Of a stretch of 7,860 bases of DNA, positions 2,396 through 6,759 are shown piece by piece. Source of the stretch: a virus (taxonomy: Duplodnaviria; Heunggongvirae; Uroviricota; Caudoviricetes); the IMG/VR virus record IMGVR_UViG_3300029219_000192. The stretch is one strand, 5' to 3'. A program made the position numbers and the translations under genes. Numbering within the stretch: the first letter of the stretch is position 1; each line of letters begins with the position of its first letter. Under the pieces are notes generated by a model. That model was not told the DNA's origin. It did not search any database and saw only the letters and a program-made list of their open reading frames with translations.

Positions 2396-3853
2396 TTAGG
2401 AGCGCCAAAAAAAACCTGAAAACAATATAATAACAGGATAAATTTCAAGGCGACCAAGAATCATAGCTATGCACATTAAATATTTTGCAATGTCATTAAG
2501 CACTCCGAATGACGATGCAGTAGCCCCAAAACCTAATCCCATATTATTAATACATGCAGCCACTGTTGCAAATGATGTAAGAAAATCATATCCCATACCA
2601 TTTAACACCAGTATAAAAAACACCGTGAAGAGAGTATAAAGAAAAAAGAAACTCCATACAGACCTCATTACACGATCTGTAACTATCTTCCCTCCTACAT
2701 TTACACTCAACAACGCTCTGGGATGAGAAAGCTGATTTATCTCGTGTTTGCTTTGTTTGAAAAGTATAAGAAATCGAAGTGACTTAATTCCACCACAAGT
2801 TGAACCTATACATCCCCCAAAGAAACTTGACGACAGCAAAAACACTATCGTGTGCGTGGGCCAGTTTGCATAATCCTGCGTAGCTAAACCATTATCAGTG
2901 AGCATGGAGCTGGCAAGAAAAAACGAATGAATAAAACTTCCATGCAAGTCATACATACCTATATGCCAGACCTGGAAAGAGGTAACAATGATCACCCCTA
3001 AGGCTATTAACAGAAAGAAACGAAGTTCAATATCTCTGATTAAAGGTTTTATCGTTTTCCTGCTAATAACAATATACCAAAGAGTGAAGTTGAAAGCCGA
3101 TAGCAGGGAAAAAGAACCAGCCACCAGCTCAACCAAATAGTTATTAAAATATCCGATACTCTCGCTATGAGTTGAGAAACCACCAAGCGAAACTGTGGAA
3201 ATCCCGTGACAAATAGCATCAAACAAAGGCATTCCTGCAAGTCTATAACAGACAATACAAGCAATACCTAATAAAGAATAAGTTATCCACAGTGTCCGTG
3301 ACGTATCGGCCAGGCGGGGAGTGAGTTTGTCATCCTTAAATGGCCCCGGCATTTCTGACTGATAAAGCTTTGTACCACCAATACCCAATAATGGCAATAC
3401 AGCAACCGCCAGAACAATAACTCCTAAACCACCTATAAAATTTAACTGTGACCGATAGTACAAATATGCCCGAGGTAATGAACTAACATCATCAATTACA
3501 GTTGCTCCTGTTGTTGTTATTCCAGAAACCCCTTCAAACAGAGCATCAATGAACGTTAAATTAAGTTCTGAGTCAATCCATAAAGGGAATGCACTAATAA
3601 CAGAAAACAAAATCCAAAACATTACAATTATAATAAACCCATCACGGGTACGTAATTGAATGCCAGATTTCTTAGTTGTATACCACGCTCCGCCACCAAT
3701 GCAAAAAAATATAACGAAAGTTATAAAGAAAACGAACAGGCTTTTTTCTTTATAAAACAATGCTACAACCATTGGTGGCAACATTGAAAGACTATAGAGC
3801 CAAACCAGGAACCCACACATATGAGTAACAACTCTTACATGAGATGTATTCAT
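2396..3853 (-). CDS. trkG: Trk-system potassium uptake protein, TrkH/TrkG family membrane subunit (prophage-borne)
   Basis: Long, very hydrophobic ORF with repeated glycine-rich pore-loop-like segments (ITTTGATV, FIGGLGVIVL, STVSLGGFSTH, FGGCIGSTCGGIK). It is strikingly AT-rich compared with its neighbours and lies beside Rz/Rz1, as in Rac. The start is taken as the ATG at 3851-3853 (MNTSHVRV..., 485 aa); the ORF-track start at 3871 is a TTG. Confidence 0.85.
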   Translation of the reverse strand: MNTSHVRVVTHMCGFLVWLYSLSMLPPMVVALFYKEKSLFVFFITFVIFFCIGGGAWYTTKKSGIQLRTRDGFIIIVMFWILFSVISAFPLWIDSELNLTFIDALFEGVSGITTTGATVIDDVSSLPRAYLYYRSQLNFIGGLGVIVLAVAVLPLLGIGGTKLYQSEMPGPFKDDKLTPRLADTSRTLWITYSLLGIACIVCYRLAGMPLFDAICHGISTVSLGGFSTHSESIGYFNNYLVELVAGSFSLLSAFNFTLWYIVISRKTIKPLIRDIELRFFLLIALGVIIVTSFQVWHIGMYDLHGSFIHSFFLASSMLTDNGLATQDYANWPTHTIVFLLSSSFFGGCIGSTCGGIKSLRFLILFKQSKHEINQLSHPRALLSVNVGGKIVTDRVMRSVWSFFFLYTLFTVFFILVLNGMGYDFLTSFATVAACINNMGLGFGATASSFGVLNDIAKYLMCIAMILGRLEIYPVIILFSGFFWRS

Positions 3854-3990
3854 ATCTAAATATTCTTTCAATTATAACCACCTTGCTGCAATATTATGAT
3901 TATACTGTATAAAATTTAACTCCTCTTAGATCTTACTTCACTGTTCCTTATGAAACAATCATCAAAATGAATCATATTGTAGTTAAGATT

Positions 3991-4455
3991 TTACTTTAAA
4001 CACTGCTCGGTTATGTATTGCTGAGCACCTTCAAGTTGGGCCTGCATCATTACCAGTCGTTCCCGGAGGGTGAAATAATCCCGTTCAGCGGTGTCTGCCA
4101 GTCGGGGGGAGGCTGCATTATCCACGCCGGAGGCGGTGGTGGCTTCACGCACTGACTGACAGACTGCTTTGATGTGCAACCGACGACGACCAGCGGCAAC
4201 ATCATCACGCAGAGCATCATTTTCAGCTTTCGCATCAGCTAACTCCTTCGTGTATTTTGCATCGAGCGCAGCAACATCACGCTGACGCATCTGCATGTCA
4301 GTAATTGCCGCGTTCGCCAGCTTCAGTTCTCTGGCATTTTTGTCGCGCTGGGCTTTGTAGGTAATGGCGTTATCACGGTAATGATTAACAGCCCATGACA
4401 GGCAGACGATGATGCAGATAACCAGAGCGGAGATAATCGCGGTTACCCTGCTCAT
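3991..4455 (-). CDS. Rz: Rz i-spanin (inner-membrane lysis protein)
   Basis: Near-identical to lambda Rz along its length ([68 protein letters not shown]...). The start is taken as the ATG at 4453-4455, which overlaps the upstream endolysin-remnant stop as ATGA; the track start at 4467 is a GTG. Confidence 0.9.
4050..4235 (-). CDS. Rz1: Rz1 o-spanin (outer-membrane lipoprotein), embedded in Rz in the +1 frame
   Basis: 61-aa ORF wholly inside Rz. It has a lipoprotein signal with lipobox LVVVGC and a proline-rich region ([24 protein letters not shown]), matching lambda Rz1. Confidence 0.85.
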
Positions 4456-4676
4456 TGTTGCCCCCACAAACAGACCTCACGCTCAATCTCACGACGAGTC
4501 ATCAGGCCTTTCCATTGCTTACCGCCAGCGTATGCCCAGCGACGTAGCTGGTCACATGCGCCCTTGATATCGCCCTGGTTTATTTTGCGAAGAAGAGTAG
4601 ATGTTCTGAAATTGCCTGCGCCCACGTTATAGACGAACGAGTAAAGAGCGCCGCGCGTTGTTTCCGGTAGGTGCGA
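4452..4676 (-). pseudogene. Phage endolysin (lysozyme, R21/RrrD-like) 3' remnant: about the last 70 codons only
   Basis: Minus-strand frame ending at the TGA that overlaps the Rz start: ...[71 protein letters not shown]. This matches the C-terminus of lambdoid lysozymes (from memory). The frame is closed upstream by a TGA (plus 4677-4679) with no start codon; the N-terminal catalytic part and the holin gene are absent. Confidence 0.6.
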
Positions 4677-4794
4677 TCACTTTCGTCTACTCCGTTACAA
4701 AGCGAGGCTGGGTATTTCCCGGCCTTTCTGTTATCAGAAATCCCCTGAAAGCACAGCGGCTGGCTGAGGAGATAAATAATAAACGGGGGGCTGT

Positions 4795-4986
4795 ATGCAC
4801 AAAGCATCTCCTGTTGAGTTAAGAACGTGTATCGAGATGGCACATAGCCTCGCTCAAATTGGAGTCAGGTTTGTGCCAATACCAGTAGAAACAGACGAAG
4901 AATTTCATACGTTAGCCGCATCCCTTTCACAAAAGCTGGAAATGATGGTGGCGAAAGCAGAAGCAGATGAGAGAGACCAGGTATGA
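4795..4986 (+). CDS. Small early-region protein, YdfA-like (63 aa)
   Basis: ATG ORF with a G-rich RBS, MHKASPVELRTCIEMAHSLAQIGVRFVPIPVETDEEFHTLAASLSQKLEMMVAKAEADERDQV. Its stop overlaps the next start as ATGA. It resembles, from memory, the first gene of the ydfA-ydfB-ydfC trio of the Qin prophage. Confidence 0.5.
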   Translation: MHKASPVELRTCIEMAHSLAQIGVRFVPIPVETDEEFHTLAASLSQKLEMMVAKAEADERDQV

Positions 4987-5066
4987 CAACCACTGAATGC
5001 ATTTTTCTGGCAGCGGGCTTCATATTCTGTGTGCTTATGCTTGCCGACATGGGGCTTGTTCAATGA
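4983..5066 (+). CDS. Small hydrophobic peptide, YdfB-like (27 aa)
   Basis: MTTTECIFLAAGFIFCVLMLADMGLVQ, a single predicted transmembrane helix. ATGA overlaps with both neighbours suggest translational coupling. The alternative reading is that the next gene starts at 4997 in another frame (93-aa track ORF). Confidence 0.35.
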   Translation: MTTTECIFLAAGFIFCVLMLADMGLVQ

Positions 5067-5278
5067 CACCTCAGCAAGAAAACGCCCTTCGCAGCATTGC
5101 CCGTCAGGCTAATTCTGAAATCAAAAAAGCCAGACAGCAGTTTCCGGATAAAAACGTCGATGACATTTGCCGTAGCGTACTGAAGAAGCACCGCGAAACG
5201 GTAACGCTGATGGGATTCACACCGACTCATTTAAGCCTGGCAATCGGCATGTTAAACGGCGTCTTTAAGGAACGATGA
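5063..5278 (+). CDS. Small early-region protein, YdfC-like (71 aa)
   Basis: MTPQQENALRSIARQANSEIKKARQQFPDKNVDDICRSVLKKHRETVTLMGFTPTHLSLAIGMLNGVFKER. The start overlaps the upstream stop as ATGA. Same frame as the 93-aa track ORF (4997-5278), but the coupled start at 5063 is preferred. Confidence 0.5.
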   Translation: MTPQQENALRSIARQANSEIKKARQQFPDKNVDDICRSVLKKHRETVTLMGFTPTHLSLAIGMLNGVFKER

Positions 5279-5299
5279 ACATGAAAAGCAAAATTATCA

Positions 5300-5324
5300 G
5301 GGAGCTACAGGCTCCTTTTTTATT
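5300..5324 (+). terminator. Short GC hairpin plus T-tract (weak intrinsic terminator or small-RNA 3' end)
   Basis: GGAGC (5301-5305) pairs with GCTCC (5311-5315) around a 5-nt loop, followed by TTTTTTATT. The stem is only 5 bp, so confidence is low. Confidence 0.25.
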
Positions 5325-5376
5325 GCTCGCATTTACCCCCAAGCGTATTAACCAACAATTCAGGGATTAATGGAAG

Positions 5377-5598
5377 ATGGCAGACATCATTGATTCAGCA
5401 TCAGAAATTGAAGAATTACAGCGCAACACAGCAATAAAAATGCGCCGCCTGAACCACCAGGCTGTATCTGCCACTCATTGTTGTGAGTGTGGCGATCCCA
5501 TAGATGAGCTAAGACGCCTGGCCGTTCAGGGTTGTCGGACTTGTGCAAGTTGCCAGGAAGATCTGGAGCTTATCAGTAAACAGAGAGGTTCGAAGTGA
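5377..5598 (+). CDS. DksA/TraR-family C4-type zinc-finger protein (phage TraR-like)
   Basis: 73-aa ORF with four-cysteine motif ...HCCECGDPIDELRRLAVQGCRTCASCQ... Size and motif are typical of TraR-like proteins in lambdoid early regions. Confidence 0.8.
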   Translation: MADIIDSASEIEELQRNTAIKMRRLNHQAVSATHCCECGDPIDELRRLAVQGCRTCASCQEDLELISKQRGSK

Positions 5599-5846
5599 GC
5601 GTAATTCACTCTCAGGCACTGCGTGAAGCGGCAGAGCAGGCAATGCCTGACAACTGGGGATTTGACGCGGACCTTTTCCATGAGCTGGTAACACCATCGA
5701 TTGTGCTGACACTGCTGGATGAACGGGAAAGAAACCAGCAATACATCAAACGCCGCGACCAGGAGAACGAGGATATTGCGCTAACGGTGGGGAAACTGCG
5801 TGTTGAGCTGGAGACAGCAAAAATCAAAACTCAACGAGCAGCGTGA
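5595..5846 (+). CDS. Ead/Ea22-like early protein, N-terminal part; ORF closed by TGA but coding-like frame continues to 6008
   Basis: GTG start overlapping the TraR-like stop (GTGA). MSVIHSQALREAAEQAMPDNWGFDADLFHELVTPSIVLTLLDERERNQQYIKRRDQENEDIALTVGKLRVELETAKIKTQRAA resembles Ea22-family N-termini (from memory). After the TGA at 5844-5846 the same frame stays open for 53 more codons. Confidence 0.45.
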   Translation: MSVIHSQALREAAEQAMPDNWGFDADLFHELVTPSIVLTLLDERERNQQYIKRRDQENEDIALTVGKLRVELETAKIKTQRAA

Positions 5847-6144
5847 GTAGAAGGTGTTATCTCGGATGGAAGTAAGCGTATTGCTGAACTGGAGGCCTGG
5901 GTTGAATACACAAGAGCTGCATACGTAAGAGCAAAAGACAAGGGAGATTTGATCAGAGTTATTACCCGCCAACCAACGGGATTTTACGCTTACGTACCAT
6001 GTAATTAGGAATCCTTGAAGTGGCAGCCTAACTGCGGATACACTGAAATGGCGATTTGGTAACATGTTTCGCACAAGGCTGTTACTACACTTAGAGATAA
6101 TCAGCCATGATTAAACGCTTTGTAAAAAGTAAAAGGAAATTACA

Positions 6145-6759
6145 ATGAAAAAATCAATACTAATTTTAGGGCTTACGTTAATTGTCTCATCTCAAATACC
6201 ATCGGCAATGGCAAAAAATGAATCAAAACTATGGGTTGTTGTTGATCGAACGGAAAGACATACCTGCCCTTCAAGTAAATGTGGAGTGGCTGGGAAACTA
6301 TTTTTCAGGGAAGGCGTAGATTTTCTAGAAAAAAAAGGTGAATGGGTTCGTATAACTGAGCCATATTCAGCCTCATGTGTTGGAGGGGAAAGCGAATATA
6401 TTAAAGAAGGTAATAAATCCTGCACAAGAAAAAATGGAATCGTTAATGGCAAGTTTTCAGAATGGGTTAAACTTAGTGATCTTAGCAGTGAAAGGCCATC
6501 AGATCCTGCTGAAAATGCGAGCGGAGATGATACTTTAATCAAAGGATCTGATGACTACCGTATATACAAAAAAGAGTTTTCTTCGGCAGCTAGGAAGTTA
6601 ATAAATGAAGGGGTCTGCACGGAAAGCGATTTTAAGGAAATCGGAGGGTGGATGGCATCAAGCAATAAGGGTGAAAACATCTATTTCACATATTGCGGAG
6701 GAATGACGTTGTCGAACAGAATATACCTAGATGTTAAAAGTGGAAAGACTTTTAGATAA
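6145..6759 (+). CDS. Secreted (Sec signal peptide) cysteine-containing protein of unknown function; AT-rich cargo gene
   Basis: 204-aa ORF with an AAGGAA RBS. N-terminal MKKSILILGLTLIVSSQIPSAMA-KNE is a typical signal peptide with an AxA cleavage site and no lipobox. Several Cys lie in the mature part. Composition is visibly AT-rich compared with flanking genes, and a strong terminator follows. Confidence 0.7.
   Translation: MKKSILILGLTLIVSSQIPSAMAKNESKLWVVVDRTERHTCPSSKCGVAGKLFFREGVDFLEKKGEWVRITEPYSASCVGGESEYIKEGNKSCTRKNGIVNGKFSEWVKLSDLSSERPSDPAENASGDDTLIKGSDDYRIYKKEFSSAARKLINEGVCTESDFKEIGGWMASSNKGENIYFTYCGGMTLSNRIYLDVKSGKTFR

What the first reader, a model, noticed from the sequence alone, without database searches (positions are those of the whole stretch)
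4795..5846. Orphan early-operon block of five overlapping small genes with no repressor gene upstream
Five small ORFs (63, 27, 71, 73 and 83 aa) are chained by ATGA or GTGA start/stop overlaps at 4983-4986, 5063-5066 and 5595-5598. They resemble the ydfA-ydfB-ydfC plus TraR-like plus Ea22-like early genes. In Qin this type of operon follows the dicA repressor and leads to the dicF/dicB division inhibitors. Here the upstream flank is the lysis-remnant junction, with no repressor gene and no dicB-like gene, so regulation and expression are unclear.
Basis: partly seen in the sequence, partly recalled or inferred. Interest (0 to 1): 0.4.

Follow-up and report, generated by a model that had tools for sequence, protein, structure and literature searches.

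The report
Stranded lambda exo-xis gene block
These small genes are the well-known "exo-xis" block of phage lambda, left without their promoter and repressor by a 13-kb deletion in a decayed E. coli prophage, so the finding is ordinary apart from a conserved, unstudied 27-codon gene inside it.

Summary
They are not ydfA/ydfB/ydfC relatives. Window 4666-5893 is 96% identical in DNA to the phage lambda exo-xis region and 100% identical to phage Chlobot. It holds a truncated orf60a, orf63, a 27-codon ORF, orf61, orf73 (a TraR homologue) and a truncated ea22.

In intact relatives at the lambda attachment site next to ybhC, the block lies directly after exo. It is the far end of the pL early-left operon, about 4 kb downstream of the cI repressor gene.

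Here one deletion of about 13.3 kb, at the microhomology TCCGGTA (4663-4669), fused the 3' end of the endolysin gene to about codon 9 of orf60a. It removed holin, Q, nin, O, P, cII, cro, cI, kil, gam, bet and exo, together with the interval that holds pL.

The identical junction occurs in 21 of 5,426 complete E. coli genomes, so it is not an assembly error. No promoter-like site precedes the block, so it is most likely silent cargo.

One point is of modest interest. The 27-codon hydrophobic ORF, unannotated in reference lambda, shows a clear purifying-selection pattern, whereas the overlapping N-terminal extension of orf61 does not.

The parts
3991..4467 (-). Rz spanin gene, with the Rz1 lipoprotein ORF embedded at 4050-4235. 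It belongs to the left (late-operon) side of the deletion.
   Evidence: ORF list. RefSeq calls it 'lysis protein' WP_000092276.1, and the same protein is present in the intact parent-type prophage.
4452..4670 (-). 3' remnant of the endolysin gene (rrrD-type, last 72 of 165 codons). Its 5' part was deleted.
   Evidence: RefSeq annotates it as a pseudogene 'missing N-terminus'. Its translation equals residues 94-165 of the full-length lysozyme in L235.
4663..4669 (.). Deletion junction: the microhomology TCCGGTA, shared by the endolysin gene (TCCGGTA) and orf60a (TCCGGGTA).
   Evidence: Three-way comparison of the window, an intact endolysin gene and an intact prophage. The parental positions are about 13.3 kb apart in L235. 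The junction is 100% identical in 21 complete genomes.
4658..4822 (+). orf60a', a truncated lambda orf60a homologue. True homology starts at about 4670, so the first 9 or so codons, the start codon and the ribosome-binding site are lost. The TTG start at 4658 is an annotation artefact of the fusion.
   Evidence: Pfam DUF1317, residues 4-54 matching profile positions 10-60 of 60. Identical to lambda Orf60a residues 10-60 at 51/51 positions.
4704..4726 (+). Hairpin inside orf60a, published as predicted terminator t1. It has a weak T-tail.
   Evidence: Terminator-like hit. The same sequence is listed as t1 in PMC4195576.
4795..4986 (+). orf63 (DUF1382), homologue of lambda Orf63.
   Evidence: 59/63 aa identical to lambda Orf63. 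Pfam DUF1382, E 7.9e-32. Matches PDB 8DSB, E 8.6e-33.
4983..5066 (+). 27-codon hydrophobic ORF (MTTTECIFLAAGFIFCVLMLADMGLVQ), joined to both neighbours by ATGA overlaps. It is a candidate small membrane protein. The lambda equivalent is 31008-30925 on the complement strand, where it is unannotated.
   Evidence: The amino-acid sequence is identical in lambda. Alleles seen in at least 2 haplotypes are 9 synonymous to 2 non-synonymous in this frame (p = 2.5e-4) and 0 to 11 in the orf61-extension frame. GRAVY is 1.62. It appears only as 'hypothetical protein' in a few E. coli records.
5063..5278 (+). orf61 homologue in its full-length form. It is 71 aa from ATG 5063, and some annotations extend it to 93 aa from ATG 4997.
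   Evidence: phrog_303, E 4.7e-36. Residues 1-24 match lambda Orf61 residues 33-56, after which reference lambda is frameshifted (A7 against A6 at 5123-5128). Substitutions are 16 synonymous to 6 non-synonymous. RefSeq uses the 71-aa model.
5275..5370 (+). 31-codon ORF in the orf61-orf73 gap. Some phage records annotate it, and it is probably the 31-aa peptide reported from lambda ribosome profiling. Conservation as a coding sequence is not shown here.
   Evidence: ORF list. Annotated in phage 21, Chlobot and others. The review PMC8614690 mentions a 31-aa 'orf2313'. Substitutions are 4 to 5, not significant.
5299..5327 (+). Intrinsic terminator-like hairpin followed by a T-run, between orf61 and orf73. 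It is published as predicted terminator t2.
   Evidence: 8-bp stem followed by TTTTTTATT. Predicted fold of -13.5 kcal/mol, z = -2.5. The stem and T-run are those of the t2 listed in PMC4195576; the window differs from that listed sequence at 3 flanking bases.
5377..5598 (+). orf73, a TraR/DksA-family zinc-finger protein and homologue of lambda Orf73.
   Evidence: 70/73 aa identical to lambda Orf73. PF01258 at 35 bits. Matches TraR structures 5W1S and 6N57. The DxxDxA motif (D3, D6, A8) and two CxxC pairs can be read directly in the sequence.
5595..5846 (+). ea22', the N-terminal part of an Ea22-like gene. It is ended by a +1 A insertion (run at 5819-5823) that brings TGA at 5844-5846 into frame.
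   Evidence: 91% identical to lambda Ea22 residues 1-78. PF13935, E 1.3e-20. RefSeq marks it frameshifted and incomplete. The same truncated state is found in intact prophages and in phage Chlobot.
5847..5893 (+). Last stretch of ea22 homology with lambda, after a 4-nt deletion at 5849/5850. Beyond 5893 the sequence belongs to a different module.
   Evidence: The blastn alignment with lambda ends at window 5893.

Best explanation
The block is the exo-xis segment of a lambda-type prophage sitting at the lambda attachment site beside ybhC. It holds orf60a', orf63, a 27-codon ORF, orf61, orf73 and ea22'. This segment is the promoter-distal end of the pL early-left operon. In the intact phage it is transcribed from pL, which the CI repressor keeps off in the lysogen, and N antitermination carries RNA polymerase through internal terminators such as the hairpin between orf61 and orf73. 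The overlapping stop and start codons would allow translational coupling along orf63, the 27-aa ORF and orf61, and from orf73 into ea22. In this window a single illegitimate deletion of about 13.3 kb, at the microhomology TCCGG(G)TA, joined the 3' end of the endolysin gene (opposite strand) to about codon 9 of orf60a. It removed the holin gene, Q, the nin genes, O, P, cII, cro, cI, cIII, kil, gam, bet and exo, and with them the cI-to-exo interval where lambda carries pL/oL and N/nutL (N itself is not annotated in the parent record). The remaining genes therefore have no known promoter and no regulator. They are most likely silent passengers, still intact only because the deletion is recent. 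Shown here: the identity of the genes, their synteny, the junction, the parent arrangement and the spread of the junction. Taken from the literature: pL transcription, Orf73 acting on RNA polymerase like TraR, and the pro-lytic or pro-lysogenic effects of the other genes. Inferred: the silence of the remnant and the translational coupling.
For: Window 4666-5893 aligns with lambda 31.3-30.1 kb at 1184/1233 identities and is 100% identical to phage Chlobot. Pfam finds DUF1317, DUF1382, zf-dskA_traR and Ead_Ea22, all above their cut-offs. Intact prophages at ybhC carry identical proteins in the order cI, sieB, cIII, kil, gam, bet, exo, orf60a, orf63, orf61, orf73, ea22'..., xis, int. One of them (L235) also carries the same trkG, Rz and full-length endolysin on the other side, with the two junction points about 13.3 kb apart on one strand. 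The junction shows the microhomology TCCGGTA against TCCGGGTA. The same junction is found at 100% identity in 21 of 5,426 complete genomes. No sigma-70-like site lies on the + strand between 4414 and 6300, and all upstream genes are on the opposite strand. The published view is that exo-xis genes are transcribed from pL (PMC8614690 and PMC4195576). Lambda Orf73 binds RNA polymerase and inhibits rRNA promoters, and its expression from pL slows host growth (PMC9239242).
Against: Silence was not measured, because no expression data were available. BPROM predicted a promoter (p1) upstream of orf73 in lambda and Phi24B, and orf73/ea22 transcripts rose independently of upstream genes in H2O2-induced Phi24B (PMC4195576). 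Some pL-independent expression of orf73 therefore cannot be excluded. The consensus scan used here is crude and would miss weak or non-sigma-70 promoters. The intactness of the ORFs says nothing either way, because all 21 copies are identical.
Confidence: 0.85

Rival explanations
1. The remnant is still partly active. An internal promoter upstream of orf73 (the published predicted p1), or a fortuitous one near the junction, drives low-level synthesis of the TraR-like Orf73 and possibly the other small proteins. The host or plasmid would then keep a transcription-modulating gene from the dead phage.
For: A BPROM-predicted p1 overlaps the t2 hairpin, and orf73/ea22 mRNA was high after H2O2 induction of Phi24B despite the terminator (PMC4195576). 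orf73 is intact and 70/73 identical to functional lambda Orf73. The remnant has been carried onto IS26-flanked plasmid regions.
Against: The proposed -10 element (TATTAT) is not conserved. It reads TATTAT in 120 of 212 sequences, TATTGT in about 80 and TATTGC in 10, including this window, where the critical final T is lost. The promoter scan found no site there. p1 has never been mapped experimentally in the papers read. Orf73 expression slows growth, so constitutive expression would be costly. All 21 copies are identical, so there is no sign of selection for retention.
Confidence: 0.12
2. One reading: a Qin-type early operon (ydfA-ydfB-ydfC plus TraR-like and Ea22-like genes) that would normally follow a dicA-type repressor and lead to dicF/dicB.
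For: The only support is a general analogy. Both are small-gene strings in the leftward early operon of a lambdoid prophage, and ORF sizes are roughly similar.
Against: There is no sequence similarity to K-12 YdfA, YdfB or YdfC (best E = 4.8). The Pfam family differs: DUF1382 here against DUF1391 for YdfA. No DicF or other Rfam match was found. The block is 96% identical in DNA to lambda instead. In intact relatives the upstream repressor is a cI/LexA-family protein, and the division inhibitor is kil, not dicB.
Confidence: 0.02
3. The junction of the lysis remnant with the early genes is an assembly artefact, and a repressor gene would appear upstream in a corrected assembly.
For: None found.
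Against: The 251-nt junction segment is 100% identical in 21 independently assembled complete genomes, on 12 chromosomes and 9 plasmid records. It also has a clean 7/8-nt microhomology, typical of a real deletion.
Confidence: 0.01

Closest known systems
Phage lambda exo-xis region (orf60a-orf63-orf61-orf73-ea22; lambda 31.35-29.85 kb), also present in Stx phages 933W, Phi24B and VT2-Sakai
   Same: 96% DNA identity over 1.23 kb. The gene order, overlaps and two predicted hairpins (t1, t2) are the same. The Pfam families are the same. In intact relatives the block sits between exo and xis.
   Different: Here orf60a lacks its first 9 or so codons, and everything upstream (exo through cI and on to the holin gene) is deleted. 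orf61 is the full-length 71/93-aa form, whereas reference lambda has a frameshifted 61-aa version. ea22 is cut to 83 codons, and from 5894 onward the ea22 3' end and ea8.5 region is replaced by another module.
Escherichia phage Chlobot (PP925838) and intact ybhC-site prophages such as those of strains AMSHJX01 and WP8-S18-CRE-02
   Same: 100% DNA identity from 4666 onward with Chlobot. The prophages encode identical RefSeq proteins for orf63, orf61 and orf73, have the same truncated ea22' and, in AMSHJX01, the same downstream genes up to xis-int. WP8-S18-CRE-02 also has the same trkG, Rz and endolysin side.
   Different: These relatives keep the complete immunity, replication and recombination regions. 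The window lineage has lost about 13.3 kb of them.
F-plasmid TraR and lambda Orf73 (DksA/TraR family binders of the RNA polymerase secondary channel)
   Same: The 73-aa ORF has the C4 zinc finger (PF01258), the N-terminal DxxDxA motif and the same length. It is 70/73 identical to lambda Orf73, which inhibits rrnB P1 in vitro.
   Different: No promoter is available here, so activity in this context is untested. There are three substitutions relative to lambda: I30V, R45L and V49A.
Qin prophage dicA-ydfA-ydfB-ydfC-dicF-dicB operon
   Same: Both are strings of small genes in the leftward early operon of a defective lambdoid prophage.
   Different: There is no sequence or family relationship for any ORF, no DicF RNA and no DicB. 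The repressor type differs in intact relatives.

Membership tests
Lambda exo-xis region | Sequence homology and collinearity with lambda orf60a-orf63-orf61-orf73-ea22 | tested here: met
   1184/1233 nt identical to lambda in one collinear alignment. Protein identities are 51/51, 59/63 and 70/73, and 91% over Ea22 residues 1-78.
Lambda exo-xis region | Position between exo and xis in the prophage | tested here: met
   In intact relatives with identical proteins, the block follows exo directly and precedes xis-int at ybhC. In the window itself exo is deleted, while xis-int remains downstream in the matching genome.
Lambda exo-xis region | Characteristic protein families (DUF1317, DUF1382, zf-dskA_traR, Ead_Ea22) | tested here: met
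   All four are above the Pfam gathering scores.
Lambda exo-xis region | Transcription from pL under CI and N control | tested here: not met
   cI and the interval that holds pL, oL, N and nutL in lambda are absent from the window, removed by the 13.3-kb deletion. The segment is a member by descent but is detached from the operon's control.
Qin ydfA-ydfB-ydfC / dicB operon | Sequence similarity to YdfA (DUF1391), YdfB and YdfC | tested here: not met
   The best blastp E-value was 4.8, and there was no DUF1391 hit.
Qin ydfA-ydfB-ydfC / dicB operon | DicF sRNA and dicB downstream, dicA-type repressor upstream | tested here: not met
   No Rfam match at E <= 1 anywhere in the window. No dicB-like ORF was found. 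Intact relatives have cI/cro and kil instead.
TraR/DksA family (for the 73-aa ORF) | C4 zinc finger of the DksA/TraR type | tested here: met
   PF01258 at 35.0 bits against a cut-off of 24.9. CxxC pairs are at C34-C37 and C53-C56. Matches TraR structures 5W1S and 6N57.
TraR/DksA family (for the 73-aa ORF) | N-terminal DxxDxA motif needed for TraR and Orf73 function | tested here: met
   The sequence begins MADIIDSA, giving D3, D6 and A8. PMC9239242 shows that D3N and D6N affect lambda Orf73.
TraR/DksA family (for the 73-aa ORF) | Binds RNA polymerase and alters transcription initiation | not testable with these tools
   This is shown for lambda Orf73, which is 70/73 identical, in PMC9239242. 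For this copy it is inferred only.
Ead/Ea22 family (for the 83-aa ORF) | Full-length protein with N-terminal, coiled-coil and C-terminal domains | tested here: not met
   Only residues 1-78 align with the 182-aa lambda Ea22. A +1 insertion brings a stop codon into frame at 5844-5846. RefSeq flags it as frameshifted and incomplete.

The most novel reading that the evidence does not exclude
The 27-codon ORF (window 4983-5066; lambda 31008-30925, complement) would be a genuine, translationally coupled gene for a small single-helix membrane peptide. It would be conserved in lambda and the Stx phages but missing from the lambda reference annotation. In that case the annotated N-terminus of orf61 (lambda ATG 31024, or the 93-aa model) is wrong and Orf61 starts at the ATG/GTG that overlaps the peptide's stop codon. 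Published orf61 deletion mutants may then have removed two genes.
Probability: 0.5. Interest if true: 0.35.

Novelty: already known. Interest (0 to 1): 0.15.

Why it matters
For the block as a whole it matters little. It is a textbook region of lambda, stranded by an ordinary deletion in a decaying prophage, and RefSeq already annotates most of it correctly.

Two minor points have some use. First, the exact parent and product of a 13.3-kb microhomology deletion are both available among complete genomes. The product has since moved onto IS26-flanked plasmid regions, which gives a clean example of prophage decay and of how remnants spread.

Second, the 27-codon ORF between orf63 and orf61 shows the substitution pattern of a real coding sequence, while the overlapping N-terminal extension used in lambda and Stx-phage orf61 annotations does not. 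If confirmed, this would add a small membrane peptide to the exo-xis region. It would also change how orf61 deletion and structure-modelling studies are read.

Tried and rejected
- **Homology to Qin YdfA/B/C:** blastp with short words and no composition correction found nothing. Rejected.
- **Known RNAs such as DicF:** an Rfam scan of the whole window at E <= 1 gave zero matches.
- **Promoter at or near the junction:** the consensus scan found no + strand site between 4414 and 6300. The nearest site (4385-4413, 9/12 matches) lies inside Rz/R antisense and is no better than chance, with 5 sites found against 3.1 expected.
- **Cross-species diversity for the conservation test:** the genome-contig scan returned almost only lambda contamination contigs in unrelated taxa, so it was not useful. 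IMG/VR and phage records were used instead.
- **Distant homologues of the 27-aa peptide:** tblastn at E <= 10 found only copies at 92% identity or more, all within the same module. Diverged Orf63 homologues (about 55% identity) are followed by other genes, so no deep conservation test was possible.
- **Downstream frame of ea22' (5847-6008) as a conserved alternative C-terminal domain:** tblastn found only Chlobot and two weak hits, so it is not supported.
- **Solved relatives of Orf61:** there were only stretch-less ankyrin noise hits. The Pfam ZapA hit (E 0.014, 16 bits against a cut-off of 23.8) is below threshold, so the RefSeq name 'cell division protein ZapA' on some copies is not backed here.
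- **The lambda ribosome-profiling paper (PMC3718152):** it is not held in the library, so translation of the 27-aa ORF could not be checked.
Full report
**1. Observation**

- ORFs lie at 4795-4986 (63 aa), 4983-5066 (27 aa), 5063-5278 (71 aa), 5377-5598 (73 aa) and 5595-5846 (83 aa, GTG start). The 71-aa ORF uses the second ATG of a 93-aa ORF that begins at 4997.
- The overlaps are ATGA at 4983-4986, ATGA at 5063-5066 and GTGA at 5595-5598.
- Upstream, on the opposite strand, are an Rz/Rz1 spanin pair (3991-4467 and 4050-4235) and the 3' end of an endolysin gene (4452-4670). There is no repressor gene.

- A truncated sixth gene at 4658-4822 overlaps the first ORF (Pfam DUF1317, E 2.7e-32).
- A 31-codon ORF lies at 5275-5370.
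- A terminator-like hairpin lies at 5299-5317 and is followed by TTTTTTATT.

**2. What it is**

A search of complete E. coli genomes found the segment 4400-6300 at 100% identity in a set of genomes. In most other E. coli genomes it matched only in part.

In strain S43 the region lies in a defective prophage next to ybhC, the side of the lambda attachment site. The gene order there is IS26, pin', stf', tfa, a ParB-like gene, trkG, Rz, R', then orf60a', orf63, orf61, orf73, ea22', several other genes, xis, int and ybhC.

In strain AMSHJX01 the same right-hand genes, encoding identical RefSeq proteins, follow a complete early region. That region runs cI (annotated as a LexA-family protein), sieB, cIII, kil, gam, bet and exo.

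A direct alignment shows that window 4666-5893 matches phage lambda 31.3-30.1 kb at 1184 of 1233 positions. Protein identities to lambda are:

| Window ORF | Lambda counterpart | Identity |
|---|---|---|
| orf60a' | Orf60a residues 10-60 | 51/51 |
| 63-aa ORF | Orf63 | 59/63 |
| 73-aa ORF | Orf73 | 70/73 |
| 83-aa ORF | Ea22 residues 1-78 | 91% |

The isolated phage Chlobot is 100% identical from 4666 onward. The Pfam families are DUF1317, DUF1382, zf-dskA_traR and Ead_Ea22, all above their cut-offs.

This is therefore the exo-xis region of a lambda-type phage. It has been studied by the Wegrzyn and Donaldson laboratories and, for orf73, by the Gourse laboratory (PMC8614690, PMC4195576, PMC6213356 and PMC9239242).

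**3. The comparison with Qin**

I fetched the K-12 Qin locus and translated ydfA, ydfB and ydfC. Sensitive blastp of all window ORFs against them gave no hit better than E = 4.8. YdfA belongs to DUF1391, whereas the 63-aa ORF belongs to DUF1382. An Rfam scan of the whole window found nothing, so there is no DicF. The Qin reading is rejected. The TraR-like and Ea22-like calls were correct.

**4. Why the block is orphaned**

A three-way comparison places the junction at TCCGGTA, window 4663-4669.
- To the left, the window follows an endolysin gene, which reads ...GTTTCCGGTA|TATCG.
- To the right, it follows orf60a, which reads ...ATATCCGGGTA|GGTGCG.

Strain WP8-S18-CRE-02 carries what looks like the parental arrangement in one prophage. 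It has trkG, the same Rz protein, a full-length endolysin and the holin gene. An IS1, Q, rusA, the nin genes, ren, P, O, cII, cro, cI, sieB, cIII, kil, gam, bet and exo follow, then orf60a and the rest. The two junction points lie on the same strand about 13.3 kb apart.

One illegitimate deletion at a 7/8-nt microhomology therefore produced the window's structure. It removed the first 93 codons of the endolysin gene, the first 9 or so codons of orf60a, and everything between them. That includes the repressor gene cI and the interval where lambda carries pL/oL and N/nutL.

A 251-nt probe across the junction matched in full, at 100% identity, in 21 of 5,426 complete genomes. These comprise 12 chromosomes and 9 records labelled as plasmids. 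The junction is therefore real and arose once or very few times. On plasmid pECO-cbb3 the remnant begins at an IS26 just left of trkG.

**5. How it works**

*In the intact phage.* Published work places these genes in the pL transcript. From general lambda biology, pL is repressed by CI in the lysogen and depends on N antitermination to pass terminators.

The hairpin at 5299-5327 has the stem and T-run of the published predicted terminator t2. In lambda, mRNA levels drop across it. The conserved ATGA and GTGA overlaps (212/212, 212/212 and 144/144) are consistent with translational coupling, but that is an inference.

Lambda Orf73 is a TraR homologue. It competes with DksA for RNA polymerase, inhibits rrnB P1, raises phage yield and slows host growth when expressed from pL (PMC9239242). 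The window's copy keeps the DxxDxA motif and both CxxC pairs.

Deletion studies describe Orf60a, Orf63 and Orf61 as pro-lytic and Ea22 and Orf73 as pro-lysogenic. Orf63 matches a solved structure, PDB 8DSB.

*In the remnant.* All upstream genes point the other way. No promoter-like site lies on the + strand between 4414 and 6300. orf60a has lost its start codon. The most likely state is silence.

The main rival is low-level expression of orf73 from the BPROM-predicted promoter p1, which overlaps t2. That prediction is weak. Its -10 hexamer varies among relatives: TATTAT in 120 sequences, TATTGT in about 80 and TATTGC in 10. The window has TATTGC.

**6. The 27-codon ORF**

This is the only part with some novelty. 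Three gene models exist for 4967-5066.
- Reference lambda starts orf61 at the equivalent of 4967.
- Many phage records start it at 4997, giving the 93-aa model.
- RefSeq and phage 21 start it at 5063, giving the 71-aa model.

I collected 212 related sequences, which form 127 haplotypes at 94-100% identity, from phage records and IMG/VR. Each variable site and allele was classified as synonymous or non-synonymous in each frame.

For alleles seen in at least two haplotypes:

| Region and frame | Synonymous : non-synonymous | Statistic |
|---|---|---|
| 4987-5062, 27-aa frame | 9 : 2 | omega about 0.08; p = 2.5e-4 against a 27% synonymous expectation |
| 4987-5062, orf61-extension frame | 0 : 11 | includes one stop codon |
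| orf61 (71-aa part) | 16 : 6 | comparison gene |
| orf73 | 31 : 19 | comparison gene |

Other observations point the same way.
- The peptide is identical in 186 of 212 sequences, including lambda. The differences between the lambda, Sakai and window lineages are all synonymous in its frame.
- The upstream extension is broken in many lineages. Codon 4994-4996 is TGA in 74 sequences, and the ATG at 4967 reads ACG in 43.
- The published AlphaFold model of Phi24B Orf61 excludes residues 1-23 from the fold. That fits a start at Met23.
- The peptide is strongly hydrophobic (GRAVY 1.62; residues 6-26 average 2.4), so it may form one membrane helix.

The peptide exists in databases only as 'hypothetical protein' in a few E. 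coli records. It was not found in the searchable literature. The review of lambda ribosome profiling mentions extra peptides of 7 and 31 aa in this region, but none of 27 aa.

Several caveats apply.
- The sample is shallow, at 94% identity or more.
- Sites are not phylogenetically independent.
- Eighty loci were retrieved with an 18-mer from inside the ORF. That suppresses variation in the 18-mer but does not bias the synonymous to non-synonymous ratio.
- Translation was not shown.

**7. Other details**

- Reference lambda orf61 (61 aa) differs from the window by an extra A. It has A7 where the window has A6 at 5123-5128, and this shifts the frame after residue 56. The review also calls lambda Orf61 truncated. 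The window carries the full-length form.
- ea22' differs from lambda by a +1 A (run at 5819-5823) and a 4-nt deletion at 5849/5850. The TGA at 5844-5846 falls between these two changes. Homology to lambda ends at 5893. The same state occurs in intact prophages and in Chlobot, so it predates the deletion.

**8. Verdict**

The block is the already known lambda exo-xis region in a decayed prophage, and a single identified deletion explains its orphan status. Interest is low. The conserved 27-codon ORF and the corrected orf61 start are worth a short experimental check.

Noticed in passing
window 5123-5128 (lambda about 30870): Reference lambda has A7 where the window and nearly all relatives have A6. 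As a result the annotated lambda orf61 (61 aa) is a frameshifted version of a 71/93-aa gene. The review PMC8614690 independently calls lambda Orf61 truncated.
   Followed up: partly
L114 (plasmid pECO-cbb3, NZ_CP026206) 10996-21446; also the 145-454 kb records: The same remnant, with the identical junction, sits on 9 records labelled as plasmids. It runs from trkG through Rz, R' and orf60a' to xis and int. On pECO-cbb3 it begins at an IS26 and is interrupted by IS5 and IS110 before xis. This suggests IS26-mediated movement of a chromosomal prophage remnant.
   Followed up: partly
window 2396-3871 (-) and L235 3622-5079: The potassium transporter gene trkG lies between Rz and the terminase genes of an otherwise lambda-like prophage at ybhC, with a ParB/Srx-like gene beside it. 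This is the same neighbourhood as in the K-12 Rac prophage, so trkG travels as phage cargo in more than one prophage type.
   Followed up: no
window 6145-6759 (+): A 204-aa ORF with a signal-peptide-like N-terminus (phrog_8310, E 1.8e-136; weak SH3_3 hit) occupies the place of the ea22 3' end and ea8.5. A UmuD-like pseudogene fragment and other small genes follow before xis. Its function is unknown.
   Followed up: no
L010-L023: Contigs of about 48.4 kb carrying lambda-identical sequence appear in genome assemblies of unrelated species, including Shewanella, Pseudomonas, Oceanobacillus, Kitasatospora and Chromatium. Shorter fragments appear in Bradyrhizobium and several other assemblies. This is almost certainly lambda control-DNA contamination of those assemblies.
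   Followed up: no
window 4798-4982 (orf63): orf63 shows only weak purifying selection in the same data set: 14 synonymous to 32 non-synonymous changes (omega 0.85) with all alleles, or 10 to 14 (omega 0.52) for alleles in at least 2 haplotypes. By comparison, orf61 and orf73 give omega of about 0.15-0.46 in the same counts.
   Followed up: no
window 5847-6008 (+): After the in-frame TGA of ea22', the same reading frame stays open for another 54 codons, because the +1 and -4 indels cancel to -3. tblastn found no conserved homologue except Chlobot, so this is probably a chance open frame.
   Followed up: yes
RefSeq protein names: Many copies of the orf61 protein are named 'cell division protein ZapA' in NCBI records. 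The Pfam ZapA match here is sub-threshold (16.1 bits against a cut-off of 23.8), so the name looks like over-annotation.
   Followed up: partly
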